A stretch of 62,562 bases of DNA, counting the filler, from Sphacelaria rigidula (taxonomy: Eukaryota): the NCBI GenBank assembly GCA_964200075.2. It is 9 parts of 9 records of this genome, joined end to end, with 100 filler letters (N's around TTAATTAATTAA, not from the genome) between each part and the next. Parts side by side here need not be neighbours in the genome. Positions count along the whole stretch, not along the records: positions 41,779 to 48,640 come from CAXNAA020017712.1; 8 more parts are not named here. One strand, written 5' to 3'. A model generated the notes under the pieces. It saw only the letters and a list, made by a program, of their open reading frames with translations, did not search any database and was not told the DNA's origin. The position numbers and the translations under genes were made by a program. Position 1 is the first letter of the stretch; the number at the start of each line of letters is the position of its first letter. This document shows, piece after piece, positions 3,301 to 49,021 of the stretch.

Positions 3301-6196
3301 AGTCCTCTTCGTCGGGACTACTGTGGTAGCTCAATGTTCGGTATGACTCCTCAATAAGCCACATGGAGGAGGTGTCGTGAGTAGAAATCATGCTAGAATT
3401 ACAGGTCAGGGGAAACGTGCAGCATGTGTTCTCACGTAGTGATCAACTAGTGGGTGGTTACGTACCGATCCTCTTAGAACCAGTCCAACGAATCTTGGGC
3501 AAATGGGTTCATTCCTTCCGCATCGACCGCTGCACACGAACTGGCCGCAACGATACCAAGCGGTTGATTTTGCAATGAGGCGGGAGTCACACGTCGGCGT
3601 TTTGCTTTGCACGTGCTCTAACATGCTGCCATGATGCCTCCTTTCCATTGGCTGCTTGTAGGCAATCATGGATGCCATGGACAAAGACCAACGTCAGATC
3701 GAGGAAATCCTCGAAGCGGAGCGTGTGCGCGTCGAGGATGGACTCAAAGCCGCTGTCGCATCCAGAAAGGCAAGGGATGAAAGGGACGCCAAGAACGAGG
3801 CCGAGCAAGAGCACTCTTCAAGGTACGTATCGTTGCGGCTTCTTCACTGCAGTATTGTTTAATCTGTTTCGACGAACCTGCACATCGTCAACAGCATACT
3901 CTACACTGCGCCCGAATTGAAATAGATCATACCGTGTCAGTTGCGCGATGAAAATACGCACTATCAGCCCCGAGCGGTCGAAGACGAGACTGTCCTGGAG
4001 AGGTTATCAAGGCGCTGATCACGGCTGACTTGGATGCAGTTGATTCATGAAAAAAATACATGCTTCGATCTAGTACGTGTGCGTTAATTCATCACGCTTC
4101 AAGCTACGCGCACTGTGCTATATCTTTCACGCTCAAGACGTCATAGACGGGTGCATATGATTGATGCATCACGTGTGTATTGGAAAACGACTCCCAAGTC
4201 GTGAGTCTGCATGGAGGAAAGACCCTTGGAATCAGGGCGCATGTGTCGACAAACGCGTGTCCCGGCATATGCGTGCGCTGAAACAAAACTTCAAAACAAA
4301 GGGCGCCTTTTCTCCACGTCCGGATCAGCCCCCCGTCCTTCCTCCCTCCCCCCCACCCGGCAGCAGTCGCTTCCCCTTTTTCGGGTCGAAGACAAACATT
4401 ATCGACATTGACCAAAAGTTTGCTTCAATACGCTGTGTGCAGCCAGTTACAGCGGCTGCAGGAGTTGCATAATGCTCACATATATTCCTCAGGTGACGCT
4501 GTGTTTCCGCAACCCCCTTTTGTGGCGTGTGAGGTAAATCTTGACGCGACTTCGCGTCTCCGCCGGGTCCTCCCTTCCCTTTCAGTTGACTCTTGACAAC
4601 AGAGTTCCTCGTTCTCCCTTACTTCACCTCCCGTTTTGGGCTTTGATTGAAATGTTGGGGGTGTGATGTCGGAACTGAGAGGTACGAACCCCCTTGCTCG
4701 ACGCACTGTTTTGATCAGTATGAACGAATGGGCGCGCGGCTGCCCGACAGCTGATTGCTCCACAAATAATACATGGTGCATCGTGATTTACGGCGAACTA
4801 GGGACGGCGCCCTCATCTCCTACCCTCCTCTCCGTTAGTGCGGGGCTTCAGTGTATGTCCTTCCAGAGCATCTCATGTTTCAACGGCCTTGCCGGCGGCA
4901 ACGATATCTCCTACCCCGTGGACCAACTAGGCACATGCCATAGGAATCACTTGTTTTGTTCCTACCACGCTTACGTGCGATATGCCGTGCCATTTTGTCG
5001 GTGTTTCAATTATAGTGCACGGTTCCGTGCCCTGTACTCTACACAACGAGACAAACAAGAATGCCTGCAGGTTGATAAATCCGTAAATCTGACTTGGATA
5101 GCTGAAAACTTTCGTGCCTCGAACACTGCAGTCACAACTCTGATTTTCATCAGATGCTGACCGACTGGTGATAATTTTCCCGTGCCGAACGAACGATCCA
5201 TTGCAAATGAAGTTTGCCCACCAAGGATGAGCTTCTGGAGAGGCATACGACCCAAATCAATGAACTACGACGGAAGCACACGGACGCGTTGAAAGCCGTA
5301 GGTGCTGACACAGATGATGAGGATGATGAGGATGATGAACAAGAAGGGGAGCGCACCACCGGCGATGAGGCCGGCGGGGCGGGCAGATTCGTTGCTGCCT
5401 TGAAACAGGTCGGTGGCGAATGAACAGCAGTTGCCGGTAAAGCGCTCGACAAAACACCGGGGTACTCCGCGGGCATTTCTTTCTTCAACCCCTGTCCTCT
5501 GGTCGTCGATCACACCGCTGACTACGCAAGGTGTTGCTGTGAGCATATGTTCTGGAATTCCGATGTTTGATACACCTTCGGCCGTGGGTAACACCATCGC
5601 ACGTACTCGAAGGGCTGCGATACAAGTTACACCGTCTTCCCGCCTTCGTGCGGTGCCTGATCGATACATAGGCTCAACTAGCATCGTCAGCAGCGCGAAG
5701 AGTACTGTTCTGCACGTAGCTAACTTTAACTCATTTGAGGTTACAGGTTCACTCGACATGAAGCACCCACGGTGTGGGATGTTTGTGGTTTGTGACGGAC
5801 TTATTCACAAGGGGAAACAAAAGATAGCGGACCGGGAAAATGTATGCACACGAACTTCTGCGAGGAAAATTGCGGCGATCGAAATGAGCTTCACGAAAAC
5901 GTCACATTCGTCTCTGACAGCATGTTCTGTACGTACCGCAATATTTTCTTCGTATACCGAAGACATAGTTTTCTTCGTCTGGCTATGGCTCTCCCTGACG
6001 CCGTGACCTGGATCGCATGCTGGAATAATTCCCCAATTTCGATTTTGGGCAGCAGAAGAGTATCCTCATTTTTGCACCCTGTCGATGTTGGCGCGGATCA
6101 GGTTCACGCGGAGCAAGAGGCCCTGCTGAAGGCGAACTTCGCGTCCAAGGCGAAAAGCGCACAGAGGGGACTCACGGAGCGGCTACGCGCTCAGAG
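307..6196 (+). CDS. Internal part of a multi-exon, coiled-coil-rich hypothetical protein; exons 307-441, 1128-1316, 1875-1970, 2199-2346, 2991-3136, 3662-3822, 4443-4533, 5226-5408, 6102-6196
   Basis: All exons are AG/GT bounded with compatible phases and no stops; E/K/R/A-rich helical peptides (e.g. AIMDAMDKDQRQIEEILEAERVRVEDGLKAAV); start and stop lie outside the contig. Confidence 0.8.
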
Positions 6197-6731: not shown

Positions 6732-6863
6732 CCGACGAGGAAGAACACCTGGAGATATACGGGTGGTTGAGAGAGGGGATAAGGATCAAAGCATATTTTC
6801 ATGGCCCGATGGACGCTGCGGAAAATTTGAAATTGCAATTTCGGGTGGGGGACCTAGACCTGC
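6732..6863 (+). mobile_element. LINE (non-LTR retrotransposon) ORF fragment
   Basis: EHLEIYGWLREGIRIKAYFHGPMDAAENLKLQFRVGDLDL matches, from recall, the C-terminal region of an abundant brown-algal LINE ORF; preceded by a C8 tract; cut by the contig end. Confidence 0.6.
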
Positions 6864-9285: not shown

Positions 9286-10694
9286 CGAGGCTGGCAGTAA
9301 CCACGGAAAGAGCCATCCGTCAAGGTTTCCCTCATGTTAGAGGCAGGTGTCCTTGAGTTTCACCCGCCGTGTCCAGCAGGACGCGGCCGTACAGCCTAGC
9401 CGAAGCGAAGAGTATCTTGTGCCAAGGATCACTGTGGACCTGTGCCGGCAGGGGGCAAGATCTCCTTACAGACAGCGCCGTACTAGGGTACCCGACTACC
9501 GCGACAGTCTGACGAGGACAGGGGCGGTTGCCGTAGTATTCTTCTGATGAAATCACCCGGAAATTCTTTGCGCAAACGCTCCCACTTGAAATCTTGACCT
9601 TCCTCTGACACGAGCATGATGGCACTTTGGTGGAGTTTTTTGCCATTTCACTTGATTCCAGAAGAGGAAAGAGGGCAAATATTGCACCTCTTGTCCCGTT
9701 GTGTTTTTGTTCAGAGGCCATTCTCGAAACCTCGGAGCCAAGCAAACCGGGAAAGTGAGCTAGAATCCTCTCTTTGGGGGTGATGAAGAGTGGCCGAGGC
9801 GTGTGATGGCGATATTCCCTGTTAAGGGGCCAAAAACCGTGTCGAATGCCCCAAAAGTAGAAAATACCCCCCCCCCCAAAAAAAAAAACGTAAAAAACGG
9901 TCTAACGCCTGTAACGACGAAAAATCATGCTCGATTGGTTGACTGACTGATTCCCGCACCTTTTTGACTGATCCCCAAAGGATTCAGCCGTTGTCAAGGG
10001 ATAGACGTCCACAAGTTATTTAAAAGGAAAAACTTGCTCAAGATACTCAAAAGGGGGGAGAGAAAAGAACGTGGGACAAAGAAGTCCACTGAATAAGAAA
10101 ACGCAAGAGAAAGAAAATAAAGCGGAAGGGCAGAGGAGATAAGGAGAGGAAAGAAGAGAAGAGGGGAACAAAGAGAACAAAACGGTCCCGATAAACAAGG
10201 CAACGATAGTAACAAACAAGAAGTGGCCGACCCCTGTAACATGGCTTCAGATTAAAAAAAAAACCGTGCGTGAAAACATGCACCCACACGACAAAAGTAC
10301 AACATAACAAATAGGCCGTGGGTAGCAGGAGTTCGCCTCGGCCGTGTGAAAAGCGCCTAATGGGGCATGAACGCTCGACGACGAGCTCTCCAGAAGTCTG
10401 ACAACAACAACGTTATAGCATTTGAAAACAACAGAAGCCGAAACGATGATAACACGGGCAGAGAGGACGAGAAAAGAGCAAGCATAAAAAAGTGTGGAAG
10501 CGACGGAACCCGGAGACAAATCAAAACATGTCTATGATGATGAAACCACATGCCCTTACAGCTTGGTAACGATCAACCAACACTCACAAGCATAGGGTTT
10601 TCACTGCAACCTATGAGTGCTGTCGTCTTTCTCAAGCCATTTTCCTCTCTTGTTCGTTCGCCGTATGAAAAAACGCCTCACCATTATTTTGGCC

Positions 10695-11071
10695 GGTCGC
10701 CCCGGTGACTCAGCCGGTAACCTCGAAATCTTCCGACAGTTGGGTCGTGGGTTCGAATCTTCGGTGCAGTCGCACGATCTGGGATATTTTCTCACACGAT
10801 GCCCAACAGGGGAGAGCGACCATGTCGTGGATACACAAAATTCGACGTCACGGTCGACGAGGGAAATGCACCGCTGAATCCCTCTCGCGAGGAAAAAATA
10901 AAAGACAAGCACCACAAAAGGAAGGTAGAGTACTAAAACAAAGGAAAAAATAAAAAAGCTCCTGCGTTGACCTTCCTCCTGTGTGACACCGGCTGATGTG
11001 CCCACATCATATTTACCGAAAGGTGTAGACTGGCGTCCAGAATAGATGTAATGACAACACACACACACACA
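10695..11071 (+). mobile_element. tRNA-derived SINE family A with (CA)n tail
   Basis: GGTCGCCCCGGTGACTCAGCCGG (A box), GGTTCGAATC (B box), ~300-bp shared body, (CA)n tail; five copies in the window. Confidence 0.8.
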
Positions 11072-11320
11072 TCAAGCATTTCTATGAGACTGCTTGCCTA
11101 CACCCCGACCTCCCAATATCTTACCCCGACACCAAACCCTGTTTTCTTTTGCCATATATCAAAGCAATAGCACCCAGCATTCGAAGATGATGCTCGCACC
11201 TCTGCATGCATACACCGCGACTTCGCTACGTGCTTCCGTGCATTCGAGTGACCCATCCCTGCTCTTTACCCCGCAGGAGTCGGTTTCGAGGTTACGTACG
11301 TTTTTTGTGGTATCAATATC

Positions 11321-11674
11321 GGTCGCCCTGGTGGCTCAGTTGGTAACCTCGAAACCTTCTGACGGTTGGGTCGTGGGTTCAAATCCCGGAGCGATCTGTG
11401 ATATTTTCTCACACAATGCCCAACAGTGGAGAGCGACTATGTCGTGGGTACACAAAAAAAATGACTTCACGGTCGACGAGGGAAATAGACTGCTGAACCC
11501 CTCTCGCGATAAAACATGAAGGAAAGCACCGCAGAAGGAAGGTGGAGAACTAAAACAAGTAAAAATGAAAAACTCCTGTTTTGAGCTTCCTCCTGTGTGA
11601 CCCCGGCTGATGCGTCCACAGATACCGGAAGGTGTAGACCAGCGCACAGAATAGATGGGATGACAACACACACA
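11321..11674 (+). mobile_element. SINE family A copy
   Basis: A box TGGCTCAGTTGG, B box GGTTCAAATCCC, same body and CA tail as 10695-11071. Confidence 0.8.
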
Positions 11675-11675
11675 T

Positions 11676-11949
11676 ATGATGATGGTCGGGTTAGATCATG
11701 TTGTGCGGGGTGGAGAACCTCAACTCTGTGCTCAAGAGGATGATCGTACTACGTAGTGTTAAGACGGTAAGACACCCAGGATGCAGGTCACCCTCATGCG
11801 ACGCACCGACATCACGGCGCTACGCGTTTGGTGACTACGAGTCTGGTTCGGCCAAAATCCGTCGTGCTCCTTCCCGGCTTTGTAGAGATGCGAGGTCTGT
11901 GGTCTCATGACAACGGCATGCAGAATAATGAGTACATCCCCCCCCTCCC
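11676..11949 (+). mobile_element. Poly(C)-tailed structured element (family C), internally deleted copy
   Basis: Homologous to 44095-44487; ends GAGTACATCCCCCCCC. Confidence 0.75.
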
Positions 11950-12237
11950 GAGGCTAGTTGACCAGCGTTGGACTACAAATGTCCATAATTGGCACATTTT
12001 ACAAGTATCGCTACCCCTAACCCTAACCCCAACCAAATGCATAGCGAGAACCTTCGGGCAAGGGCGGCACAAAGCATTCCCCAGGCAAGGTGTGGCCCTG
12101 GTAGACCCCAAATCGGCGCCTGTGGCGCCGATTTCAACGAAAACGCGTTCTGCGCACGCAAGGAGCACACGGGACTGTCAGTCCTACTAAAGATCCGATT
12201 CTTGTTGTACATATTCAAATCAAGAAATAGGTCAACC

Positions 12238-13171
12238 ATGAACACTCATAGCCCAACGCCGGTTAACTCTGCTGCCCCTCCCCGTCCGCTCACTTTTCAA
12301 CCATCGCAGACACCGTCGAAGAAAAAACGGCGGCTAGCCGTCGTAGCTCTTGACGATGACGAGGGTGCGCTCGGCGAAGGGGGCGTAGCAGGCGATGGCG
12401 AGGAGGAAGAGGCGGATAAGGAGCAGACAGAGACGGAGGGCAAGCGCAGGCAGCAGCTGGCGGAAAGATGGTCTAAGCTCGAGGAGGACTCCGTGAGTGT
12501 TTTTTCTTATGTTGAGCCCCGCCCCTTGCCCCCTTTCGACTTTTCACGGTCTCCAAACGACGCGGAACAGTCTAGGATTGATGGCCCCCGACAGTGCGCT
12601 GATGCGAGTGGAGAGAAAAATGATTCCCATCGTTCAAAACCGCACTGTCGATGGAGTTGGTCGCCACTTGATGCATTCGATAATCAAGTGTCTTTTCAGT
12701 AAGTAGTAGTCGTAGTGAGCGTTCCTGTTTTATTTTTTTGATCAGCCAGTGCGAATAGTGCGGTTGGAAGGGGCGTTTTCCTTCCTGCATGGCGCGTTAG
12801 ATATGGCTCCGTGGAACTTCACTGCTGCAATGATATGTATATCTATATATATATATCACTTTTTCTCCACTTTTTTTTTTTATTTGTTTTCAAATTCCGA
12901 AGCAAAAGCCACACGCTGCCGGCCACCCTGTAAACATGCTCCGTCTCGCAAGGGGTGCGTGGTCAATGGTGAAACGAATAACCCAAGCAACAAATGAGTA
13001 TGCCCTTCCCCCCATGAACATGGCCGTGAAATGGACAGCCCGACTCGCGTATCACAGAAGTAGCACCGATAGTCTGGTATTCAGGCGGGACGCGTCTATT
13101 GAGAGGTCTATCTTGAAGCGCTACGAACCGTCAAGGGCTAGCAGCGAGGCACAAGATAAGTGTGCTATGAA
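12238..13171 (+). CDS. Probable 5' exons of a hypothetical protein: 12238-12492, 12571-12698, 13058-13171
   Basis: ATG start, donors GTGAGT/GTAAGT/GTAACG, CAG acceptors, consistent phases 0/2/2; basic KKKRR patch followed by an acidic stretch. Confidence 0.6.
12935..13013 (+). mobile_element. LINE 3'-terminal module with C tail (intronic)
   Basis: Encodes APSRKGCVVNG..SNK*; homologous to 34563-34640 and 39860-39938. Confidence 0.75.
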
Positions 13172-26439: not shown

Positions 26440-27465
26440 TGGCGAACACCCCAAATACACTCATTCGCAAAACTTTACGCAGGTTTCGAAGTTGAGACCC
26501 TGAAAAATTGTGCACATGTACCTTAGGCCATTAGGAAACGTTCTGAGGATTTTTTTACTATGTCGCCGGTTATCGGAGATCCCAGGATTTTTGGAATCTT
26601 CGGGGCATCACATACCGCTCTGGGACCCCCGATAACCGGCGACATAAAAAAAACCATGACCTGAAGTACATGTGTGCAATTTTTCGGAATCTAGCTGCAA
26701 ACACCTGCGTGAAGGTTGCGGAAATGTCCGCTGAAGTATCCCGTGCCCGATACAAGCTCTCATCTATTTGATTTTAGTATACAGCGCTTTTTCGACGTGA
26801 AAACGAACCCCTTGCATCAGTTAATCGATTTCCGCAACGACATATCGGGCGAATATTCTTTGGGCTAATCCGGGACGAATATATACATATGTATATTTGG
26901 GGGGGGGAGGGGGAGGGGGGGAGGGGGGGGCTTTCTGTACCGGCTTCCGGGAGTCTGGACACCTGAACCCTCGGAAATCGGTACGGAACGGAGGAAACTT
27001 CGAAATATTTTTCAACAGTATTTTTCAACAGTATTTTCTTCCATTTGGAGCACCAGCGCCCACCAAACTGCAAAATGTCAGGGCTATCGAACCTTCCCTA
27101 CGACAGTTGAAGGGAAATCGGTTCAGAGTCTTTATGGGTCCTTGGTGCATATCATCAATGGAAATTCAACGACGCTAAAACACAATATTACCAGAATACC
27201 ACGGTTTGATGTGTAGTTCGACCCCACAATAACCGTTTCCATTTTTCTTCTCCAGTTTAAATTCCTGAGCTGACGGTTACTCCGATTTGAAGAGTGTGAA
27301 GAGTGAGCGGAAATTGGGTTAGTATTTCCATTTTAAGAACAATTTGCAAGCCGCTGGCAGGCCGAGGCACCCTTTAGTCCCTAGCGCCACCGCTGCGGCC
27401 TTGAAGAAAACTCCGGCTATGTCGCCTTCTTTATTCGTCCATGGCCGTCAGTATGGCACCATATG
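26440..27465 (+). mobile_element. ~1-kb dispersed repeat (family P) with an internal ~240-bp palindrome
   Basis: Shares TGTACCGGCTTCC and TAGCGC(C/T)ACC..GGCCTT..TCCGGC blocks with 45720-46740(-) and 52725-53710(+); arms TATGTCGCCGGTTATCGG / CCGATAACCGGCGACATA. Confidence 0.7.
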
Positions 27466-29320
27466 CGCCTATTGGATAGGCATGGCGCAAGGGATCCGCT
27501 GAGGGTTTTTGGGGTGTTTACCGTGAACCAGCCTATATATCAGCTAAAGTTCATCCATCATGTGTTACTTTCAAGAAGGGGGCGGCGGGGAAGCCAACGG
27601 TTCATTTCTTGGGTAAATCGTGATATATGCACCCACCTCAAATGCGGGGGATATCAGCCGCCCCCTCCGCCCTTCCCCCCCCTGTGGTGAGACACCCATG
27701 AGGCAGTGTATACGCCGTTGCTGTATCAGGAAGTGGCGATACCAGATAATAANNNNNNNNNNNNNNNNNNNNNNNNNNNNNNNNNNNNNNNNNNNNTTAA
27801 TTAATTAANNNNNNNNNNNNNNNNNNNNNNNNNNNNNNNNNNNNNNNNNNNNTGATCATGAGTACACCCCCCCCCCAAAATCCCCTCAACGTGCGCAGAA
27901 ATCCCCTCTGCAGAGAGGATTTCAGGAGATGCGAAAATACTTCCTGAAATCCCCTTTTCAAAAGGGGATATCCGAACACCTCGAAGGGGAACATACGTGT
28001 CCGGTTGACAGGGTCACATGCAAAGGCTTACCACACAGCCTAACACAATCAGAGCTGAACCTAACGAACTTGGTAGCCCCGCAAACTAAAAACACGCAGC
28101 TCGAGCCGTAGCTGCTCATCAGCTGTGCACGTTGTGCGTGACATTGCTCAAATCTGTTCAGCATTCATTGAAAGATGATGATTTGTGTGAGACGCGCGCG
28201 CAGCCGCAGCACACGCTTGCAAAACGGTCGGCAACGACACGTTTTCGGTTGTTTTCGACGCGCATGAGGTCGCCACTCGTCCAAGACAGAACGGGTTTCC
28301 GTCAAACAAAGACTGCCGTGTGTAGAATAGCAAGAGCTAGCAGTGAAACAAGTTCGCGTGCGTGGTGGGTGTCTGTGCGTGTTTTTTCGGAGCTGGATGT
28401 GTAGGTGTTGTGTCGCCTTGATGTGTCTCGTGTGCGGCATTGCACAGACCTTGGTCCTGCCTGGACTAACGACCACTTCCAGACCCGTCGAGTTTCTGAA
28501 CCTGTGTGCAGATCTGGGTTCTAATCTTTACAAAACTTCTTGTCGATAGGACTCAGGACTGGTCGTTATGGGGCAAATCCCCTGTCAAAAGGGTCTGCGA
28601 AAAAGGGGATAATCCCCTTCGTTAAGAAGGGCCCTTATTTGAAAATATTGTCATCACTATTCTCCTGTAACAACCTCTCGACTAGTTTGAAGTTTGTGTT
28701 GACACGTACGGTACGATGCAATAATACGCTGCTCCATTGTGCAAATTTTCAAAAAAATATTTCGACACTTTATACGATAGCCCCCGAAATCAGCCCAAAC
28801 GTGTCACGAAAAAAAGGCCATACAGCGCCTGATATTGGGGTTCAGGCTGCATGAAGCGTCTCATGTGGGGTGTATTGGCGAGAACGACCCAAGCGTGGGA
28901 ATTCCCACCTGCTCGTTGTGCTCGGTTTCTTCCATTTCGATTTACGTGAACATTTTGCGTCCCCAAATCAGCCACTTTTGGGGGGGGCTATCGTAGAAAG
29001 TCGCTTTCTAGACATCGACGACGGGTGCGCATGGCACCGACACGCACAGTGGATATTGTGTACATCGTTGGCAAGATCTCGTCGAGAACAGGCGGCAGAT
29101 TCACTTCTTCAGCAGAGAAATCGAGGTCTGCAAAAATAATGCCAGGAGGAGGGGCACGACAAACGCCGTGTGATACCAAGTCCGCAAATATCGCAGTAGT
29201 CACACCGACTTCATACCTTCATCACTGTCCTCACACCCCCCCATCGCTCAAGACTTCCTCACCCTGCCCCCCCCCCCCTCCGCCCCTTCATCAATGCCCC
29301 ACGTATGTCGAAACCCACAG

Positions 29321-31049: not shown

Positions 31050-31239
31050 CGCGGCAAGGCCTATCAGGGTGGAGGGGGGTACTCATGCTCATGCATGCCA
31101 TAGTCATAAGACAATTGACCTCGCATCTCTTCAAAGCCGGGACGGAGCACGCTGGTTTTTCGCTGGACCAGGCTTGCACTCAAACCACCAAACGCGAAGC
31201 GCCGTGGTGTGTTCGGCGAGTGTTGCGGGGGGGGGGGGG
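31050..31239 (-). mobile_element. Family C 3' half, between C tracts
   Basis: Reverse complement CGTGCTCCGTCCCGGCTTTGAAGAGATGCGAGGTCAATTGTCTTATGACTATGGCATGCATGAGCATGAGTACCCCCC. Confidence 0.8.
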
Positions 31240-34562: not shown

Positions 34563-34715
34563 TGCTCCGTCTCGAAAGGGATGCGTGGTCAATGGTCAAA
34601 CGACTAAGGCAAGCAACAAATGAGTACGCCCCCCCCCCCCCCTCCCCCGGTCAATTGCTCCGTCTCGAAAGGGATGCGTGGTCAATGGTCAAATGACTAA
34701 GGCAAGCAACAAATG
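34563..34715 (+). mobile_element. Tandem dimer of the LINE 3' module
   Basis: TGCTCCGTCTCGAAAGGGATGCGTGGTCAATGGTCAAA..GACTAAGGCAAGCAACAAATG occurs twice, separated by a C tract. Confidence 0.85.
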
Positions 34716-35409
34716 NNNNNNNNNNNNNNNNNNNNNNNNNNNNNNNNNNNNNNNNNNNNTTAATTAATTAANNNNNNNNNNNNNNNNNNNNNNNNNNNNN
34801 NNNNNNNNNNNNNNNAAAAACCAAAAAAAAAAAAAAAAAAAAGGGGTGAGTGACGAAGTGTAACCCCGTCCCCCCTTTTTCCCGGGGGGTTCAACCCCCC
34901 CCCCCCCCCCCCCCCACCCTACCTGACCGCAGACACTTTGGGATCTTTACTGCAGGGACTTTGTGTGTGAAAATTTAAGTCACATGTCTATTTACCATCG
35001 CATTTACCGTTTTTAGTCAGACCCGCGGTCGAAATGAGGAAGATTCCCACTTGCACCCGCGCATGAAGAATGTCTCTCTGGTTAGAGAGGGGGGGGGGAG
35101 ACGGGGGTTACGTCACTGCTGCGGCGAAGCGCAGATGGTACTATTGCTGTATGCTAGGAGAAATATACTTGACAGCAAAAATGACTTGAATTGGGAAAAA
35201 CAAGGGGTAACGGTATGCCGGGTAGAGCTCAACGAATCACCGGGAGAAAATAATCATGAATGTATATGTCAATTTTAACCGAAGATTTAGTACTGGGCGC
35301 CTGAACTGTTTTTTGTTCAGTTTTTTATTCAGAAGTTTTTTTCCAGAACTCGAAAGTGCGAGCGTCCGTAGATTTTGGTGAAATGATTAGATCATCCCCC
35401 CTCCCAGTG

Positions 35410-35887
35410 CCCCGGCTTTGTAGGGGCTTGACCCCCTATGGGGTTGGCGTCGGTTGGCGATGGCGCTATAAAACACGCCACTCACTGCGTAAGCTAGGCA
35501 ATCAGGTTACCGATTTTTTGCGCGCTTCCCCTTTTTTGCGGTAACCATGATGGTAGTCGAGCTAGATCATGTTGTGCGGCGTGGGAGAACCTCAACTCCG
35601 CACAACGGGGATGATCGTACTATTATACGTAATGTTTAAATGATGAGACACCCACGAGGCAGTGTATGAGCTGTGGCTGTCTCTGGAAGTGGCCACACCA
35701 GAAAATAAAGCAACTTATTGTGGGCTGTCATCCAAATGCAAGATAATCAGTGGGCTTCGGGCCGAACAATCGTAGCAGAATGCAGCTCACCCTTCATNNN
35801 NNNNNNNGCGTTCGGTAGTTTGAGTGCAAGCCTGGTCCGGCAAAAACCCGGCGTGCTCCGTCCCGGCATTGTAGTACACCCCCCCCC
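35410..35887 (+). mobile_element. Family C near-full-length copy (contains a 10-N gap)
   Basis: Colinear with 43962-44487; ends GTACACCCCCCCCC. Confidence 0.8.
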
Positions 35888-38474: not shown

Positions 38475-38726
38475 GTGTGTGTGTGAGTTGTCATCCCATC
38501 TATTCTTGGTGCCAGTGTCCACCTTTCGGTATATATGCGGGCACATCAGCCGGGGTCACACGGGAGGAAGGCAAACACAGAAGCTTTTTACTTTTCCAAT
38601 ATTTTGTTGAAGTACTTCACCTTCCTTCTGCGGTGCTTGCCTTCTTTTCTTTTCTTTTTCGCGAGAGGGGTTCAGCGATCCATTTCACTCGTGGACCGTG
38701 AAGTCGAAATATTGTGTGTACCCACA
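38475..38726 (-). mobile_element. SINE family A, 5'-truncated
   Basis: Body and (CA)n tail homologous to the other copies. Confidence 0.75.
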
Positions 38727-39656: not shown

Positions 39657-39938
39657 GTGGTGTTTTATAGCATGAAATCGTTTGATGCATTAGACAGTAG
39701 GGACAACACAATGACTAAACTTGGAGGTATTGTACATGGTGGCCAGAGACGGCTAAACAGGTTGGGGATAAGATATGTAATTTTTTTTGTGTGTAATGTG
39801 TGGAAGAAACGTAATGAGCGCCGGAATGTTGAAGATGGCTTCATTTGGAGTAGGAACGGTACTCCGTCTCGAAAGAGATGCGTGATCAATGGTCAAACGA
39901 CTAAGGCAAGCCACAAATGAGTACATTCCTCCCCCCCC
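39657..39938 (+). mobile_element. LINE 3' end (~280 bp) with C tail
   Basis: MKSFDALDSRD...CNVWKKRNERRNVEDGFIWSRNGTPSRKRCVINGQTTKASHK*; C tracts on both sides. Confidence 0.85.
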
Positions 39939-40002
39939 GCGCGCGCATGATCTTGTGTTGGATTTTGTTCAAGATGTTTGGGCATATGGTGGATCCTATG
40001 AC

Positions 40003-40100: not shown

Positions 40101-41166
40101 AAAATATGAAGGTATGTGACTGCGCGGTGGAAAGCTACCTAGGGTCCGACGAATCATTGCTGGTTCGAATCACCAACTCTACCATAGTAGAAATAATCTA
40201 CAATATTTGAGACCTGGTCGTTCGAAAGAAGTTTCTAGGCGAATGCTGTGTCATTCCACGTGCCTGAGGTGTGCATACGTGAGGTGAAAAGCTAAAACAA
40301 AGCTCGAGGATTGATTCGTACGGTAGGAATCAATCACACTAGAAACAAGACGTTTTCAGACGAATACCGTTGTTTTTTCGACCCTTGAAAAGCTAATGAT
40401 TTCTTTACATATGTATGCGTGTCCTACTTTTAGCGCCGTCCTTCCTCCTCACTCAAAACTGCACCATAGTCTAAACCGTGTGACTGTGATGTATTTATTT
40501 TTGGCTGATATACACCGATGCGAATGTTGATAACTGTTTTTGATACATGAATATCCCTGCGGCATATATTGTATATATATTATCCCAAGTTCGTGCGGAT
40601 CAATAAGTTGAAAAAGGTAACCCATATCTCGCCCGGTTCTTCTGCTGTATTGTTCAAATACTGTAACACCCTTTGATATCATCGTACCATCCAGTTATAT
40701 TTCCCCCCCATTTTCAATTTCCTTGAGTCCAAGAGCTTGCCATATGAAAAGAGCAGGTTTATCTAATGACTTTATATGTATGGCGACGAGATGTTTCCAA
40801 AGACATAGCTGTAGGTGTCATGAGCGCCACCGCTGATGAGAGAATCGAAGTCGAAATATGTCATTGGTGGATGCGATAGTGATGAATGGTAATGCGGTAG
40901 ACATTACGAACCAGTACAGTAGGTGACCCGATTCAAGGCCACCCTGATTCATCCCAGTAAAGGCGGCTTTGAATTTATAGTGGCCTAAAACCGATTTAAG
41001 CCCGTTTAGGCCTTACATCGGGAGCATCTTGATTTTAGGCTTTTTGGGCCTTACATCGGACATGACTTGTAATTGTGTTACCTGGTACCCTATATAAGGC
41101 CTTATCAACCTTGTATAGGGTCCTCTGTGACAACTGGTTCGCGAGATCGGACTAATGTCCGGGAAA

Positions 41167-41175
41167 ACAATGATG

Positions 41176-41236
<61 letters not shown>

Positions 41237-41259
41237 TAACAATAACAACAATAACAACG

Positions 41260-41298
<39 letters not shown>

Positions 41299-41300
41299 GC

Positions 41301-41340
<40 letters not shown>

Positions 41341-41362
41341 GTAATAGTAATAGTAATAATAA
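41167..41362. repeat. Compound (AAT)n(AAC)n microsatellite
   Basis: Direct reading. Confidence 0.97.
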
Positions 41363-41589
41363 CTAGTGGTAAGCCACGGCTGACGCGCGTGGCAGCAGTG
41401 CCGAACGTATCAGCACCACGGGTCTTGCACGGGCGGAGGTTTGAACGTAATGGTGAAACATAAGAAAAGGAGTCCGACATTAACCGTAATTGATCAGGAT
41501 GAGCAGGTAAGGGCTTCCAACCGCACGGCTGACCGTAATAAGCACTATGAAGAGGAAAAAAAGCCTCGCCGTTAGGGACGCCAATAATG

Positions 41590-42189: not shown

Positions 42190-45100
42190 CTTGATTGCAC
42201 CGTCCTCGAACGCCTTCTCGGTGAGTCCTCTGTCCGCCCGCAGCATCCCGGCATGGTGGCATCCCAAGCCTGCCTGGAACAGCTCCCTGAGTTCCTTGTT
42301 ACGGGACTTTTCGACCTGGCTGGCGTGCCTGCCCCAGTGCTCAGAGGTGGTGCATGAAAAGTCTTCGAACGCGTTGTCCCTCTGTGCCAACTCGAGGATG
42401 GACTACGGGAATTGGGAGGGGGGGGGGGGAAGATCACAGTGTGAATATCTTTTCAGGCGTGGTCAGTCGCACCAAAGGGTGGGCACGTTGGTTCAAGAAA
42501 ACGTTGCGGAGCACTTGTTGCCGTGGATAAAACAAGTTGCGCCAACAATATAATTGGGCATGTATGAGGTGTTTCCACGCTGCACGCGCACAGTAGCATG
42601 TTGAGGCATACGCAAGCAACAAGCTCAGTGGCTACTCGATAGCTGTGAAAGTATGTTCTTATTGACGTACTGGTCTGTGGGCATCGGGAAAAGTAACCAA
42701 TAGAGGACACTATGGTCAAGGATCCTATACTGTAGAGCACGTGCGGGGAGAAGCTGCAGGCGGAATTACAGCAGGTAAGCATAAATTGTTCTTGTGCTCG
42801 GGACAACCACGCCGTATCACAGGATTACAGTGCTTGATCATCCCGAAAGTCGAGCAGATACAAGACGCGGGAAAGAAACATCGCCTCGGCAAAAAAGCGG
42901 AGCCACCTTCAGGTGAACAAAATAAGAAACGGAAAATGTGCAGCTAAGGACAAAACCATGACCCTGCTTTCCTTCGTTGAGAACGAGCCTGAAGCCATAG
43001 TCCCTGGCAGTTCCGTGTTCAGGGGGTGTGAGAGTGCCGCACCTGTGCAGTCCTGACGGTTTCCTTCCTGGCATGCACAAACACCATGACCTGGTGACCC
43101 TTCTGTAGCGATGCGCGTGCGCGTTCATAGGCTACCCTGTTCATCATCGCCTGACCACACAGCAGAAGAACACGCAGTGTAGGGCATAATTACGGCCGCC
43201 TGCCCTACGGCCTACAGCTGACAGCGACGGTGACACGATATGCGATCAAAAAAGATAGGAGTTTAACGCCCACAAAGTGTTTGTCGTTGCGTGGTGGACA
43301 ACAGAGAACCTCCGTTTTGAAAAACAAACAACTGTCGTAGATATTTTGACGCGGGGCAGGGAGGTGCGGGGGCGGAGAGAGCCGCCCAAGTAACGGGGGG
43401 GGGACACAAGACACAACAAAAGCCATGACGTGTTCCTCTTGTTCCCGATGAATGCGTCCTCATGCAAGAAGTTACGATGGTGAGAACTGGACCTGCTTAG
43501 CACTGTACAATTGAAACTAAGTAGCCCTACTCCGGACTAGGGTAGCGCTCCGTAAGCGATGCTTTCATCAGCAAGAGCCACAGAGTAGTGCAACGCAGAC
43601 CTCAGACCATGGTGGACACCCAAGGGCACGCAGCAAAAGACGCATCTGATATTTTGGATGCAAACATAGGGGGTGTTTATTCGTGCGAGGACACAAGCAC
43701 ATTAGTGGCGGAAGCAGCCACCGACGGGAACTGTTCGCGTTCTTCCCCGACCATTTAGTTTCTCACGGTGCTTTCGCCAGAACGACCAACTCGTTCCACC
43801 CTCACGTGCGCCAAGCACGTACAGCACCCGAAATGGAGACATGCTTCAGGAGAAAAAATGTTCGAAAACCTCATGGTACGACACACACGACGGCATGTCG
43901 CGGAATCAAAAGCATACACGCCTGAGGGATGCCTTACTATCCCCCCACCCCCCGCCCCCCCTCAGCCTGGTTCGGCGAGAACCCGGCGTGCTCCATCCCG
44001 GCTTTGTAGGGGCGTATAAAACACGCCACTCACTGCGTAAGCTAGGCAACCAGGTTACCGATTATTTTGCGAATTTGCGTTTTTTTCGGTAACCATGATG
44101 GTAGTCGAGATAGATCATGTTGTGCGGCGTGGGAGAACCTCAACTCCGCACAATGGCAAGGATCGTACTACGTAATGTTTAAAAGGTGAGACATCCATGC
44201 GGCAGTGTATAAGCCGTGGCTGTCTCTGCAAGAGGCGATACGAGAAAATATAGCAACTTACTGTAGGCTGTCATCCAAATGCAAGATGATCAATATAGGC
44301 TTCGGGCCGAACAATCTTAGCAGGATGCAGCTCACCCTTCATGCGACTCGCGCTTCGCGCTCGGTGATTGAGTGCGAGCCTGGTCCCGCGAAAAGCCGAC
44401 GTGCTCCGTCCCGGCTTTGTAGGGATGCGAGGTCAATGGCCTGATGACTATGGCATGCATAATCATGAGTCCCCCCCCCCCCTCCCCAGACCAGCCCCAA
44501 AACAAGAAAAACGTTACTCAGTGCATGATAGCTGGTTCAGACCGAATAAGGCGCCTCGTATGGACGACATTGGTGAAAACAACCCCAAGCTTAGGAGTTC
44601 CCAGCTGCTCAGTGTGCTCAGCTTATGTCATTTTGATCCACACGCCGTTTTTGTCTCCTCAGACCAGCCACTTTTCAGGGGGGGGGGTGTCCATCACTGT
44701 ATCACTCGCACCTGTTGCCGGAGTCTCTGCTTGTCCGTGACGCCGATGAACGTCTGCTCCAGAGGGACTGGTCTATGTTCCGGACCGAAGTGGAAGAGGC
44801 CCTTGCTCGAGTTTACCTGAAATACAGAACACGGAGGACATATGGATGACAACGCGCCGGAAGGGAAGAGAAGGGGCAACATGACATTGTACTATTGCCA
44901 TCACCGAACCAGTGTCAAGGATGGATACGTACTGGCCAAGAATGTGAAGAATACAAGGCTAACCAGCCGCTTCACACATGTGTGGGTAAAAAATACTCGC
45001 GCAGAACGCACGCCGAAGATACGAGAAGGTTTGTCGAGGGACCCCAGCAGAATGGTGAGCAACCGCTGCGAGGCAACGCCAAGAAGGGGTCCGAATCACA

Positions 45101-45719: not shown

Positions 45720-46740
45720 GTGTAATGCATGGTATCGTGCTGACCGCGAAGGACAAACTTAAGAGGGTGACATAGCCGGATTTTTGTTCGGGAAGGCCAT
45801 AGGGGTAGCGCTAAGGGCGAACAGCACCCCGACCAACCAGCAGCCTTCAAATGGTTCTGACATTGAAAATACGAAATTCTGACTCAATTTCTATCCAGTC
45901 TTCTCATGCTCTCAGCCGTCGCGATTGTCATCCCTTCGGAAACGTAACGGATACGAAGATACTCGAAGACGGTTATGACGGGGACCGAACTATGCCCAAA
46001 ACCGTGGTATTTCGGTATGTGGGGTTTTCGGCGTCATCAGATTTCACCGATGATGGGCATTCAAGACTCACAACGCCTGCTGACGGTTTCCTGAATATCG
46101 GTCGTGGAAAAGATCCGACCATCCTCAATTTGGGAGTTCGTTGCATATTGATGCTCCCAGTGGGAAAATGTACTGTTGGAAAATATTTCAATATTTCTCC
46201 GCCCTTTTCCCGCTTCTGGGGGTCCCAGCGCGACAACCCCCGGAAGCCGGTACATGATGTCTAAAAATGAACAGAATGCAGTTATTCCTCCCGGGGCAGT
46301 CTAAGGAACATTTGTATGAGTTTCGTTGCGTCACTCGAAACTCTGATCCGATTATTTATCGTTTCAACCCCGAACATACCCCAAAAGGGTGTTTCTGTAT
46401 TACATTCAAGTAGTTTCGGGTTTGCACCGGGCACTTCATCGTACGGAGGCGCAAAACTTCAGGCCGTTTTTTGGATTTAGACGCTGAATTTTTTCACATG
46501 AACTATCGGCCACACAAGATCTTTCCGTGGACGATCTTTTTCTCACTGTTTGTTTACTGATTTTCGGGGGTCTCAGAGGGGCACAGGAGCCCTAAGAATC
46601 CTGGGACCCCCGAAATCCGGTAAAAAAAAGCATAGTGCAGAACACAAATTCTACCGAAGTCTTGTAATGACGCACCGTACATATGTGCAGAGTTTCAGGT
46701 TGTAATTTCGAAAAACCGCGTACAGTTCTGCCTATGAATC
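45720..46740 (-). mobile_element. Family P copy with internal palindrome (46455-46725)
   Basis: Reverse-complement homology to 26440-27465; arms GATTTTCGGGGGTCTCAG / CTGGGACCCCCGAAATC. Confidence 0.65.
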
Positions 46741-48190: not shown

Positions 48191-49021
48191 ACCGTGAACG
48201 GTAACGGTACCGACTGCGCGCACGGTGCTTTCAGAATTGTTGGCGATGTGAGATGATGACTCTTAGTCAACTCATGGTCATCATTTCAATGAAAAGATTA
48301 TACTACTGTAGTCGTACATCATTTGTATTTCATACAGCTTCTTAGCTTGTGCGTGGCTCAGTATAACCCGAAGGTTCTCGCTTCATACCTTTCATAACTT
48401 CCGGGGTAAATAATGGGTACATAAGTCAACTCTGCGCTGAAAATTTGGATGCATCGATTGTACATGTCACGCATTTCTTATTATCATGAGTCGGGAACGC
48501 CATGTACAACTTGCTTGGCCAACTTGTTGGAGATGAGCGCCCGCACATATTTCCCACCTTCGGGCTAATGCGGGACTGACAAGTTGTATACAGGTTGACT
48601 CTTCACTTCCGATGGGCCCTGAACCACGCGTAAATTTCTCNNNNNNNNNNNNNNNNNNNNNNNNNNNNNNNNNNNNNNNNNNNNTTAATTAATTAANNNN
48701 NNNNNNNNNNNNNNNNNNNNNNNNNNNNNNNNNNNNNNNNGATGCGAGGTCAACGGTCTGATGACTATGGCATGCATGATCATGAGTACACCCCCTTGTT
48801 CACTCAACACACCCACAAAAAAATCAAATCTGTAAACTTCTTACACTGACGGGATACGGGGTACCGTTGGGCGGAAACACGGAACATGAGTAGCAGTGTA
48901 GTTTCTTCAGGATGGATCACCCCCAGGCTCAAGTGAGGGTTTGAGTGGGGGCGGTTCATTTGTGCCAGCAGGGGGACCAAGTAGCAAGGTACAGATCATC
49001 AAAGTTGATGGTGGTCGTGTC

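What the first reader, a model, noticed from the sequence alone, without database searches (positions are those of the whole stretch)
43962..44487. LINE and a non-coding partner element share a covarying three-helix 3' RNA module and poly(C) tails
Seen: two otherwise unrelated repeat families end in the same architecture. LINE ORF terminus (12935, 20729, 34563 x2, 39860, 55750-55920): GTGCTC-CGTCTC[GAAA]GGGATG-CGTG-GTCAATGGTC[AAAT]GACTAAGGC-AAGCAACAAAT-GAGTAC-GC(n). Family C (11864, 22632, 31050, 41590, 44400, 48741): GTGCTC-CGTCCC[GGCTTTGTA]GGGATG-CGAG-GTCAATGGTC[TGAT]GACTATGGC-ATGCATGATCAT-GAGTAC-AC(n). Stems are conserved while the loops differ. Individual copies keep pairing: CATGCTC/GAGTATG with a GCAA tetraloop at 12935; GTACTC/GAGTAC and CGTCTC/GAGATG at 39860; the second helix replaced by CGGC[TAAGT]GTCG near 55895. 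The LINE stop codon lies inside the module. Established: 'stringent' LINE/SINE pairs share a 3' stem-loop recognised by the RT. Inference: this is such a pair, but with a three-way junction and a C tail instead of an A or simple-repeat tail. I know of no description of it but cannot exclude one.
Basis: partly seen in the sequence, partly recalled or inferred. Interest (0 to 1): 0.78.

Follow-up and report, generated by a model that had tools for sequence, protein, structure and literature searches.

The report
Brown-alga LINE and partner, C-run tails
A jumping gene of a brown alga and its very abundant non-coding hitch-hiker share the same 3' end followed by a run of C, a real pair but one already catalogued in the related alga Ectocarpus, and the proposed three-helix RNA fold is only weakly supported.

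Summary
The window (nine 6.9-kb pieces of a brown-alga genome) holds at least 7 copies of a LINE 3' end and at least 8 copies or fragments of a non-coding element ("family C", full copy 43962-44487). Both end in the same ~66-nt module followed by a C run. No reverse transcriptase lies in the window. Outside it, the module closes an intact 1333-aa endonuclease + RT ORF (locus L091), and the TGA stop sits inside the module.

Family C is a discrete, extremely abundant element with no ORF and no tRNA-like or other Rfam small-RNA head. Target-site duplications begin with a C run, which suggests a G-run primer at C-rich targets.

The pair matches RTEX-1/2_Ec32 and RTEX-N1_Ec32 of Ectocarpus (PMC12477816, 2025). 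Their annotation reads single EN-RT ORF, "(C)n 3'", "C-rich" TSD, and a ~600-bp partner sharing 60 bp of the 3' end at 83%.

New here: third-codon changes vanish in the last ~90 nt of the ORF (0/30 against 18/61), which shows an RNA-level constraint. Differences between the lineages fall in the predicted loops.

Real covariation is not shown. The two inner hairpins are plausible. The closing helix depends on how much sequence is folded. Verdict: new member of a known kind, modest interest.

The parts
43962..44487 (+). Family C element (counterpart of RTEX-N1): non-coding, non-autonomous retroposon copy, 526 nt, with two internal deletions relative to most genomic copies
   Evidence: Depth steps at 43945-73 and 44467-95. 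Loose ends before 44017 (403 contigs) and behind 44351 (607 contigs) show sequence that this copy lacks. 84.5% identical to 35462-35874.
43941..43961 (+). C-rich run directly 5' of the element: the target site, or the 5' copy of the target-site duplication
43962..44010 (+). Partial 5' copy of the region just before and including the first half of the 3' module. It is 87.5% identical to 44377-44424 and is also present in the 35406 copy.
44400..44470 (+). Shared 3' module of family C (candidate RT-recognition RNA)
   Evidence: Covariance model R1 E 4e-10. 80.3% identical over 66 nt to the LINE 3' end.
44471..44487 (+). C run (tail merged with the 3' target-site duplication)
35406..35887 (+). Second long family C copy. 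Its module is internally deleted. TSD is a C run plus AGTGCCC on both sides.
11676..11952 (+). Family C copy with an internal deletion, a module and a C run
31067..31226 (-). 5'-truncated family C copy, preceded by C13
41602..41678 (-). Family C module cut by a piece end
48741..48795 (+). Family C module cut by a piece start
22645..22687 (-). Family C copy truncated inside the module, with TSD ACCGTG(CAA)
27685..27752 (+). Family C body fragment at a piece end
27853..27876 (+). Last 14 nt of a family C module plus C10 at a piece start
39680..39946 (+). LINE 3' end: 260 nt of decayed ORF end plus module, followed by C8 and GCGCGCGC
   Evidence: 76.9% identical to L091. R1 E 4.4e-23.
55832..56122 (-). 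LINE 3' end: 297 nt, with a variant second hairpin, followed by C11 and GCGCGC
   Evidence: 78.1% identical to L091..
55749..55828 (-). Module-only LINE copy in tandem behind the previous one
   Evidence: 95% identical to L091.
34563..34648 (+). Module-only LINE copy plus a C14TC5 run
   Evidence: 98.7% identical to L091.
34656..34715 (+). Second module-only LINE copy in tandem, cut by a piece end
20727..20789 (+). Module-only LINE copy lacking hairpin 2, followed by C11 at a piece end
12937..13013 (+). Module-only LINE copy with candidate TSD AACATG
6739..6863 (+). Fragment of the LINE ORF (positions 4607-4731 of the reverse complement of L091) at a piece end
   Evidence: 79.2% identical.

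Best explanation
This is a non-LTR retrotransposon of the RTE-X kind and its non-autonomous partner, in a brown alga.

Shown:
- The LINE has one ORF with an AP-type endonuclease and a reverse transcriptase. It has almost no 3' UTR: the last ~25 codons, the TGA stop and 6-7 further bases form the shared module, and a C run follows.
- Family C is a ~0.5-0.6 kb non-coding element present in very large numbers. It carries the same module and the same C run and nothing else of the LINE.
- The last ~90 nt of the LINE ORF are constrained at the RNA or DNA level. Synonymous positions are frozen there.

Inferred:
- The LINE protein recognises this 3' handle on its own RNA and, in trans, on family C RNA. 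This is 'stringent' 3'-end recognition.
- Within the handle, the best-supported features are two adjacent hairpins: CGUCUC/GGGAUG and UGGUC/GACUA, the latter with an outer GUC/GGC extension. The closing helix GUGCUC/GAGUAC is possible but not established.
- Reverse transcription starts on the C run. It is primed by a G run exposed when the endonuclease nicks the bottom strand at a C-rich target. Target-site duplications therefore begin with a C run and the 'tail' merges with them. New copies pile up head to tail in older C runs, and many are cut down to the module alone.
For: LINE identity.
- The module closes ORFs in three metagenome contigs and in two algal contigs inside bacterial MAGs.
- L091 has an ATG ORF of 1333 aa with RVT_1 at 6.7e-32 and Exo_endo_phos at 7.9e-11.
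- 4 of 4 related proteins fetched end in the same ~22 residues that the module encodes.

Partner.
- Similarity between family C and the LINE is limited to 66 nt (80.3%).
- No tRNA, and no Rfam match at E <= 1 on 43900-44520.
- Sharp boundaries and more than 60,000 contigs per DNA run.
- Family C also occurs, at 74-76% identity, in a second alga's contigs.

RNA-level constraint. Third-codon differences in the last ~90 nt against the upstream ORF:
- L032: 0/30 against 18/61, p 0.0004.
- L089: 0/30 against 8/61, p 0.049.
- Window copy at 39680: 1/30 against 20/52, p 0.0004.

Conserved stems and variable loops. LINE against family C consensus differs in 2/40 paired columns against 20/35 unpaired columns, p 5e-7. 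Without indel columns it is 2/40 against 8/23, p 0.003.

Folding and pair changes.
- The 68-nt LINE module folds into exactly the proposed junction at -18.9 kcal/mol, z -2.06, with 8/200 shuffles as good.
- Wobble-to-Watson-Crick changes are compatible with pairing: GU to AU and GC in helix 1; UG to CG and UA in helix 2.
- The second alga's family C has a G inserted 5' and a C inserted 3' that add a G-C pair to hairpin 3.

C-run targets.
- 8-9 of 12 copies have a C run just upstream, against 173/17547 (1%) of background positions.
- TSDs: C run + AGTGCCC (35406 copy), ACCGTG(CAA) (22687 copy), AACATG (12937 copy).

Literature (seen as passages and supplement table rows). RTEX-1a_Ec32 'single EN-RT ORF; (C)n 3'', TSD 'C-rich'. 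RTEX-N1a_Ec32 607 bp, '5' head unknown', 'can be present in tandem', '60 bp 3' end 83% RTEX-1_Ec32/RTEX-2_Ec32'.
Against: - No RT lies in the window, so the link to the LINE rests on other organisms' contigs.
- RTE-X membership is taken from the match of features to the published Ectocarpus annotation. It was not tested by a tree or by alignment to those consensus sequences, because the FASTA supplements could not be read.
- Family C modules do not fold better than shuffles: z -0.56, +0.11, -0.47, and +0.26, -0.36, +0.07 with more context.
- With 31 more upstream nt, the 5' strand of helix 1 in the LINE pairs with an upstream GGAGUA instead, and z falls to -1.20 and -0.95.
- One LINE lineage (L089) carries three uncompensated changes in hairpin 2.
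- Two of four full family C copies in the window have a C-A mismatch in hairpin 2.
- The upstream and downstream C runs are of similar length, so a templated C tail cannot be told apart from a duplicated C-rich target.
- The TSD of the 39680 copy is doubtful, because a related copy also ends in a C run plus GCGCGC.
- No expression data could be established.
Confidence: 0.75

Rival explanations
1. One reading: the module is a three-way junction of three helices, kept by compensatory evolution, and the junction as a whole is what the RT reads.
For: - The minimum-energy fold of the 68-nt LINE module is exactly this junction.
- On the model-fitted alignment, 91.8% of cells pair, and 0-2 of 500 shuffles reach the observed both-side changes.
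- Differences between the lineages avoid the stems.
Against: The both-side changes come from doubtful rows. After I dropped 4 rows (window:20698, window:32290, L105:1207, L105:1618), 19 distinct rows remain with 4 such cells:
- one involves a flank base at the 5' edge of the 12933 copy;
- one is in a row cut by the N linker (41608);
- one is in the questionable alignment of L132;
- only the 55841 variant hairpin is credible.

Other points:
- Shuffles reach the observed values 7/1000 to 31/1000 times, on an alignment fitted to the structure.
- RNAalifold on a MAFFT alignment of 10 representatives gives -1.31 kcal/mol, only part of hairpin 3, and 0 compensatory pairs. That alignment misplaces the family C 5' ends.
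- Helix 1 is not in the minimum-energy fold of 2 of the 3 family C copies folded, nor in the 99-nt LINE context.
- In the divergent LINE tails L132 and L134, hairpin 3 is either re-registered or reduced to 3 bp.
Confidence: 0.3
2. The conserved blocks are a linear sequence motif read by the protein (or needed at the DNA level for second-strand synthesis), and their partial complementarity is incidental.
For: - The stems hardly vary, so most pairs say nothing either way.
- Family C modules are no more stable than shuffles.
- Distant LINE relatives keep the peptide ..VVNG..AMA.. that the core encodes, so part of the conservation could be protein-level in the LINE.
Against: - Family C is non-coding yet keeps the same blocks.
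- Third-codon positions are frozen in the LINE.
- Loop lengths differ (4 against 9 nt) while the flanking complementary blocks are kept.
- The paired G/C insertion in the second alga extends hairpin 3.
Confidence: 0.25
3. The C run is not a tail of the RNA at all. It is only the duplicated C-rich target site.
For: The upstream and downstream runs are of similar length in the 35406 copy (10 and 9) and the 39680 copy (9 and 8), and 21 against 17 in the 43962 copy. The Ectocarpus annotation itself writes '(C)n termini/TSD'.
Against: - The 12937 copy has only CCACCC upstream but an 11-nt C-rich run downstream.
- The genome-wide continuation after the module is ACA plus about 20 C.
- A G-run primer needs a C stretch in the template to anneal to.
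Confidence: 0.2
4. Family C is the 3' part of a second, autonomous LINE.
For: Its 5' origin is unknown. Copies are often 5'-truncated, as LINEs are.
Against: - Depth rises from 24 to 10^5-10^7 within one 29-nt bin at 43945-73.
- No ORF or Pfam domain.
- Two long copies and the second alga's copy share the same 5' region.
- The Ectocarpus counterpart is a complete 607-bp element.
Confidence: 0.03

Closest known systems
RTEX-1_Ec32 / RTEX-2_Ec32 with RTEX-N1_Ec32 and RTEX-N2_Ec32 of Ectocarpus (PMC12477816, Genome Biol 2025; I saw main-text passages and rows of Supplementary Material 3)
   Same: - Single EN-RT ORF.
- (C)n at the 3' end.
- C-rich TSD.
- A ~600-bp non-autonomous partner of unknown 5' origin that shares about 60 bp of the 3' end at ~83% (here 66 nt at 80.3%).
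- Tandem copies.
- The most abundant family in the genome.
   Different: - The organism differs: one conserved protein is 72-76% identical to an Ectocarpus protein, and the LINE RT region is 65% identical to an Ectocarpus protein.
- Direct sequence comparison with the published consensus sequences was not possible.
- That paper does not mention a secondary structure or stem-loop: 0 occurrences in the main text and 0 in the supplement PDF. In what I read it also does not mention the overlap of the handle with the ORF end or the frozen synonymous sites.
Stringent LINE/SINE pairs such as eel UnaL2/UnaSINE1 (as reviewed in PMC3747384; passages seen)
   Same: - A shared 3' end of some tens of nt with a stem-loop.
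- A terminal repeat other than poly(A), used at initiation.
- The partner is mobilised through the common tail.
   Different: - The tail is a C homopolymer, not TGTAA repeats.
- The handle lies inside the ORF, not in a 3' UTR.
- The partner has no recognisable Pol III head.
- No experiment exists for this pair.
Green-algal RTEX families (Table 3 of PMC3747384; seen)
   Same: The same named clade, with non-poly(A) terminal repeats.
   Different: Their repeats are (CA)n, (CAA)n, (CCAT)n, (ACAATG)n and (CTTGTAA)n, not a pure C run.
Human L1 priming (T-run primer on a poly(A) tail; recalled knowledge, with PMC10830416 seen only as a search listing)
   Same: The TSD starts with the same homopolymer as the tail, which implies annealing of the nicked target strand to the RNA tail.
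   Different: - C/G instead of A/T.
- L1 recognition is relaxed (tail only), whereas here a specific module is shared as well.

Membership tests
LINE / non-autonomous partner pair with a shared 3' end | An autonomous element encoding endonuclease and RT carries the module | tested here: met
   L091 has a 1333-aa ORF with RVT_1 at 6.7e-32 and Exo_endo_phos at 7.9e-11. This is outside the window. The window holds only 3' fragments.
LINE / non-autonomous partner pair with a shared 3' end | The partner shares the 3' end and the terminal repeat, and nothing else | tested here: met
   80.3% over 66 nt, with no other similarity. Both end in a C run.
LINE / non-autonomous partner pair with a shared 3' end | Target-site duplications and 5' truncation (retroposition) | tested here: met
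   TSDs in 3 copies. Truncated copies of 43 to 297 nt.
LINE / non-autonomous partner pair with a shared 3' end | Mobilisation of the partner by the LINE protein | not testable with these tools
   Needs a retrotransposition assay.
SINE in the strict sense | A 5' head derived from a tRNA, 5S or 7SL gene with a Pol III promoter | tested here: not met
   ARAGORN found 0 genes in the window. Rfam gave 0 at gathering score over the window and 0 at E <= 1 on 43900-44520. The Ectocarpus authors reached the same result.
RTE-X clade (RTEX-1/2_Ec32 type) | Single EN-RT ORF, (C)n 3' end, C-rich TSD | tested here: met
   compared with the annotation rows.
RTE-X clade (RTEX-1/2_Ec32 type) | The RT groups with RTE-X references in a tree, or aligns to the published consensus | not testable with these tools
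   No labelled LINE references are at hand. The consensus FASTA supplements are unreadable. PDB sequence hits do not discriminate: L1 ORF2p at 6.6e-21, R2 at 8.8e-20.
Structured 3' RNA handle (three-way junction) | Folds better than shuffled sequence | tested here: inconclusive
   LINE 68 nt: z -2.06. LINE 99 nt: z -1.20 and -0.95, and -3.51 for L089 in a different fold. Family C: z -0.56 to +0.26.
Structured 3' RNA handle (three-way junction) | Compensatory base changes | tested here: inconclusive
   4 cells in 19 rows, of which at most one or two are credible. 0 in the unfitted RNAalifold run. One paired G/C insertion in hairpin 3.

The most novel reading that the evidence does not exclude
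The last ~90-100 nt of this LINE's ORF serve two purposes. They encode the C-terminal peptide, and as RNA they form a multi-helix handle that the reverse transcriptase must grasp. The handle's 5' strand can pair either with an upstream GGAGUA or with the downstream GAGUAC that holds the stop codon. The handle is old: relatives with only 37-48% identical RT regions still end in the ..VVNG..AMA.. peptide that the GGUCAAUGG core encodes. Combined with G-run priming on a C run, this would be a hybrid of stringent recognition and L1-like tail annealing. That hybrid has not been described for any LINE in the papers I searched.
Probability: 0.3. Interest if true: 0.55.

Novelty: new member of a known kind. 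Interest (0 to 1): 0.33.

Why it matters
In Ectocarpus this pair is the most abundant repeat family (main text of PMC12477816). In this alga its copies break the assembly: 5 of 16 inner piece ends fall in the module or its C run, and 2 more fall in the element bodies.

The element offers a compact natural case for three questions:
- how a LINE protein picks its template when there is no 3' UTR;
- how a coding sequence and an RNA signal share the same bases;
- how a homopolymer other than A can serve in target-primed reverse transcription.

The catalogue entry already exists, so the value lies in the mechanism rather than in the discovery of the pair.

Tried and rejected
- Whole genome of the window: none is held.
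- Pfam scan of all 254 ORFs of 80 aa or more in the window: no RT or EN domain. The only hit above its curated cut-off is an IQ motif; three others fall below theirs.
- Metagenome scan with an 18-base pattern: 88 loci, of which only 3 are true copies and 85 are chance matches.
- Viral contigs: 0 pattern matches, and no relative of the LINE protein.
- Genome contigs: 2 loci, both algal contigs inside bacterial MAGs.
- 401 genomes of the family of G001: only G001 itself matched.
- The genome search on the metagenome loci: these records are not held.
- TSD of the full-length LINE in L091: none found, and its 5' end is undefined.
- Similarity between the family C body and the LINE 5' region: none beyond 10-16-nt chance matches. 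The 'weak homology to 5' of RTEX-2_Ec32' noted could not be reproduced with the one full-length LINE at hand.
- Clade names from protein searches: the source names are uninformative.
- Expression:
  - No listed holder is on record as RNA.
  - Runs X6 and X7 are only guessed to be RNA. They are small, so abundant repeats would assemble from DNA too.
  - Their cover of the element with empty flanks therefore shows nothing about transcription.
- Literature:
  - 'non-LTR retrotransposon' + 'poly C': 0 papers.
  - 'poly-C tail' + 'retrotransposon': 4 irrelevant papers.
  - Ectocarpus/LINE/SINE/non-LTR: only genome papers with repeat tables.
- Earlier findings of this scan: nothing on this genome or sequence. 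Two unrelated red-alga notes.
Full report
WHAT THE WINDOW IS

The 62,562 bases are nine pieces of 6,863 nt (the last 6,860) joined by N44-TTAATTAATTAA-N44 linkers. No whole genome is held.

An ORF with an IQ motif at 16665-17240 is 72-76% identical to brown-alga proteins, one of them named Ectocarpus sp.. Public runs that hold the DNA are labelled 'organism A' and 'algae metagenome'. The source is therefore a brown alga related to Ectocarpus but not identical with it.

Five of the 16 inner piece ends fall inside the module or its C run, and two more fall in bodies of the same elements. The repeats evidently break the assembly.

- The sequence at 43962-44487 is as described.
- A self-comparison and inspection of the copies give two families that share a terminal module of about 66-75 nt followed by a C run.
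- A covariance model from 10 LINE-type modules (A2, R1) finds 14 matches at E <= 1 in the window.
- Eleven have E from 4.7e-24 to 5.1e-06: seven LINE-type and four family C.
- One weak match (48745) is a real copy cut by a linker. Two weak matches look spurious.
- More family C fragments lie at 22645-22687(-), 27853-27876, 35406-35887 and 43962-44010.
- C10 with one mismatch occurs 178 times against 3.46 expected.

THE LINE IS REAL BUT LIES OUTSIDE THE WINDOW

None of the window's 254 ORFs of 80 aa or more has an RT or endonuclease domain.

An exact-pattern scan of metagenome contigs gave 88 loci, of which 3 are true copies (L013, L022, L032). In all three a long ORF runs into the module and stops at the TGA of ..AAATGAGTAC.., 6-7 nt before the C run.

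A scan of prokaryote genome contigs gave two more copies, on algal contigs binned into bacterial MAGs. One of them (L091) carries the whole element:
- an ATG ORF of 1333 aa;
- RVT_1 at 6.7e-32, and Exo_endo_phos at 7.9e-11;
- no RNase H.

All four related database proteins that were fetched end in the same ~22 residues that the module encodes. The window holds only 3' fragments of this LINE: 57-80 nt (five copies), 260 and 297 nt, and one ORF fragment at a piece end.

FAMILY C IS A DISCRETE, NON-CODING, VERY ABUNDANT PARTNER

- Its only similarity to the LINE is the last 66 nt, at 80.3%.
- No tRNA gene is found in the window, and no Rfam family matches.
- Laying the contigs of two DNA runs of the organism on 43800-44650 gave 61,906 and 67,605 contigs on the element.
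- The unique flanks carry one contig each at depth ~24.
- Depth rises within the bin 43945-73 and falls within 44467-95.
- The sequence after 44470 continues in 380 contigs of run X1 as ACA plus about 20 C.
- Loose ends before 44017 (403 contigs) and behind 44351 (607 contigs) show that this copy lacks two short internal segments that most copies have. The 35406 copy and a second alga's copies have these segments too. The family is therefore nearer 0.6 kb.
- Family C also occurs at 74-76% identity in the algal contigs of G001.
- Both long copies in the window start with a partial copy of the first half of the module region.
- 'Goes back' joints show tandem or nested forms.

THE PAIR IS ALREADY CATALOGUED

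The manually curated Ectocarpus TE library (PMC12477816) states in its main text that the most abundant single family is a ~600-bp non-autonomous element. This element, RTEX-N1_Ec32, has more than 6000 copies. [quoted passage not shown]

Its Supplementary Material 3 lists the following:
- RTEX-1a_Ec32: 'single EN-RT ORF; (C)n 3'', TSD 'C-rich'.
- RTEX-2_Ec32: '(C)n termini/TSD'.
- RTEX-N1a_Ec32: 607 bp, 'can be present in tandem', '60 bp 3' end 83% RTEX-1_Ec32/RTEX-2_Ec32'.
- RTEX-N2_Ec32: 188 bp, with a similar 3' tail.

Every listed feature matches what I found. I could not align sequences, because the FASTA supplements are not readable here. Filing under RTE-X therefore rests on this match of features.

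The paper has no occurrence of 'secondary structure' or 'stem-loop' in its main text, nor of these terms or 'hairpin' in the supplement PDF. Green-algal RTEX families end in C/A-rich microsatellites, not in a C run (Table 3 of PMC3747384).

RNA-LEVEL CONSTRAINT ON THE END OF THE ORF

I aligned the last 330 nt of six LINE copies (L022 was dropped by my extraction pattern). The last ~97 nt are far more conserved than the ORF before them. Against L091, the differences at third-codon positions in the last ~90 nt, compared with the upstream ORF, are:
- L032: 0/30 against 18/61 (p 0.0004).
- L089: 0/30 against 8/61 (p 0.049).
- The decayed window copy at 39680: 1/30 against 20/52 (p 0.0004).

L032 and L089 have open frames in this region. 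The constraint is thus not only on the protein. The conserved zone starts about 31 nt before helix 1.

Distant relatives (RT region 37-48% identical) still end in a ..G(C/R)VVNG..AMA.. peptide, which is the module core read in frame.

IS IT A THREE-HELIX JUNCTION?

Evidence for:
- The 68-nt LINE module folds into exactly the proposed junction: -18.9 kcal/mol, z -2.06, 8/200 shuffles as good.
- Differences between lineage consensus sequences fall in unpaired columns. LINE against family C of the window: 2/40 paired against 20/35 unpaired, p 5e-7. Without indel columns: 2/40 against 8/23, p 0.003. Family C of the window against family C of G001: 2/40 against 11/35, p 0.004.
- Wobble pairs change to Watson-Crick pairs.
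- The G001 family C has a G inserted on the 5' side and a C on the 3' side, which together lengthen hairpin 3 by one G-C pair.

Evidence against:
- Family C modules fold no better than shuffles (z -0.56, +0.11, -0.47).
- With 31 more upstream nt, the 5' strand of helix 1 pairs with an upstream GGAGUA and the junction disappears. Hairpins 2 and 3 stay. z is -1.20 and -0.95.
- On the model-fitted alignment A3 (24 rows, 23 distinct), 91.8% of cells pair, and 6 pairs (8 cells) change on both sides. These cells come largely from a spurious hit, two misaligned rows and a row whose hairpin 2 is deleted.
- Without those 4 rows, 19 distinct rows give 4 such cells. Shuffles reach the observed values 7/1000 to 31/1000 times. 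Only the variant hairpin CGGC/GUCG of the 55841 copy is credible.
- RNAalifold on an unfitted alignment of 10 representatives gives -1.31 kcal/mol and no compensatory pair. That alignment misplaces the family C 5' ends.
- L089 has three uncompensated changes in hairpin 2.
- Two of four full family C copies in the window have a C-A mismatch in hairpin 2.
- The divergent LINE tails L132 and L134 re-register or shorten hairpin 3.

Most copies are dead and decay neutrally, so they are poor material for covariation. My reading is that the two hairpins are likely, the closing helix is open, and 'covarying' is not shown.

THE C RUN AND THE TARGET

- Of 12 copies with a definable 5' end, 8-9 have a C run directly upstream or within ~35 nt, against 1% of background positions (173/17547).
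- The 35406 copy is flanked by a C run + AGTGCCC on both sides.
- The 22687(-) copy is flanked by ACCGTG(CAA).
- The 12937 copy is flanked by AACATG after C-rich stretches.
- By the geometry known for L1 (recalled), a TSD that starts with the tail's homopolymer means that the nicked bottom strand anneals to the RNA tail. Here that would be a G run annealing to a C run.
- This explains the tandem module-plus-C-run arrays at 34563-34715 and 55749-56122.
- The upstream and downstream runs are of similar length, so I cannot separate a templated tail from the duplicated target.
- Two related copies both end in a C run plus GCGCGC, so the TSD of the 39680 copy is doubtful.

VERDICT

It belongs to a kind already catalogued in Ectocarpus in 2025, including the C run and the C-rich TSD.

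What is added here:
- the presence of the pair in further brown-alga sources;
- frozen synonymous sites showing that the ORF end doubles as an RNA signal;
- the loop-restricted divergence between the LINE and its partner;
- the TSD geometry.

The three-way junction remains a hypothesis.

Noticed in passing
window 12937, 20727, 34563, 34656, 55828(-): Five of the seven LINE-type copies start within 1-2 nt of the same point, LINE position 5087-5088, which is the 5' edge of the module. Three of them begin TTGCT, which is not the LINE sequence there. This looks like a tiny 'module-only' family, or a preferred stop or processing point, rather than random 5' truncation.
   Followed up: partly
L091:108-206:- (and L032:114-212:-): In the LINE, the 5' strand of helix 1 can pair either with an upstream GGAGUA or with the downstream GAGUAC that contains the stop codon. 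With 99 nt folded, the upstream pairing wins. These are two mutually exclusive helices around one strand.
   Followed up: partly
L091 about 4740-4850 (upstream of the LINE, opposite strand): A third module variant lies in inverted orientation with a C-rich end. It keeps the GGTGCTCCGTCTC and GGTCAATGG blocks, but the rest is rearranged. It is another family using the same kind of tail.
   Followed up: no
L134:1501-1571:+ and L132:1494-1564:+ (G001): Two divergent module copies read in frame as ..CVENGQMTGDI* and ..RVVYDKMTAS*, so they are 3' ends of other LINE lineages of the same group. In L132 the AUGAGU block is kept although it lies after the stop codon.
   Followed up: partly
proteins P0015-P0052: LINE relatives with only 37-48% identical RT regions end in a ..G(C/R)VVNG..AMA.. 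peptide after a variable linker. This is unusually strong conservation for the extreme C-terminus of a LINE ORF.
   Followed up: no
G001 and G002 (bacterial MAGs behind L089, L090): Both MAGs contain short contigs of brown-alga origin (LINE ORFs and many family C copies), which means eukaryotic contamination of the bins.
   Followed up: partly
window 10694-11071, 11320-11674, 23892-24253, 38475-38725, 62492-62560: Another interspersed repeat family of about 375 nt, 77-84% identical between copies and unrelated to the module.
   Followed up: no
window 26927-27454, 45743-46254(-), 53167-53696: An older repeat family of about 530 nt, 66-67% identical.
   Followed up: no
window 28839-28987 and 44534-44685: A repeat of about 150 nt (71% identical) with an internal G/C homopolymer run. 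It shows that not all C runs in the window belong to the module families. About 20 of the 33 runs of 7 or more C follow no module.
   Followed up: no
window 13927-14300 and 41100-41400: Long AAT/ATT-type microsatellites, which appear as poly-N, poly-I or poly-L ORFs.
   Followed up: no
window 16665-17240 (+): A likely exon of a gene whose brown-alga homologues carry CLU / eIF3_p135-type domains (PF13236, PF12807), with an IQ motif. It was used only to place the organism.
   Followed up: partly
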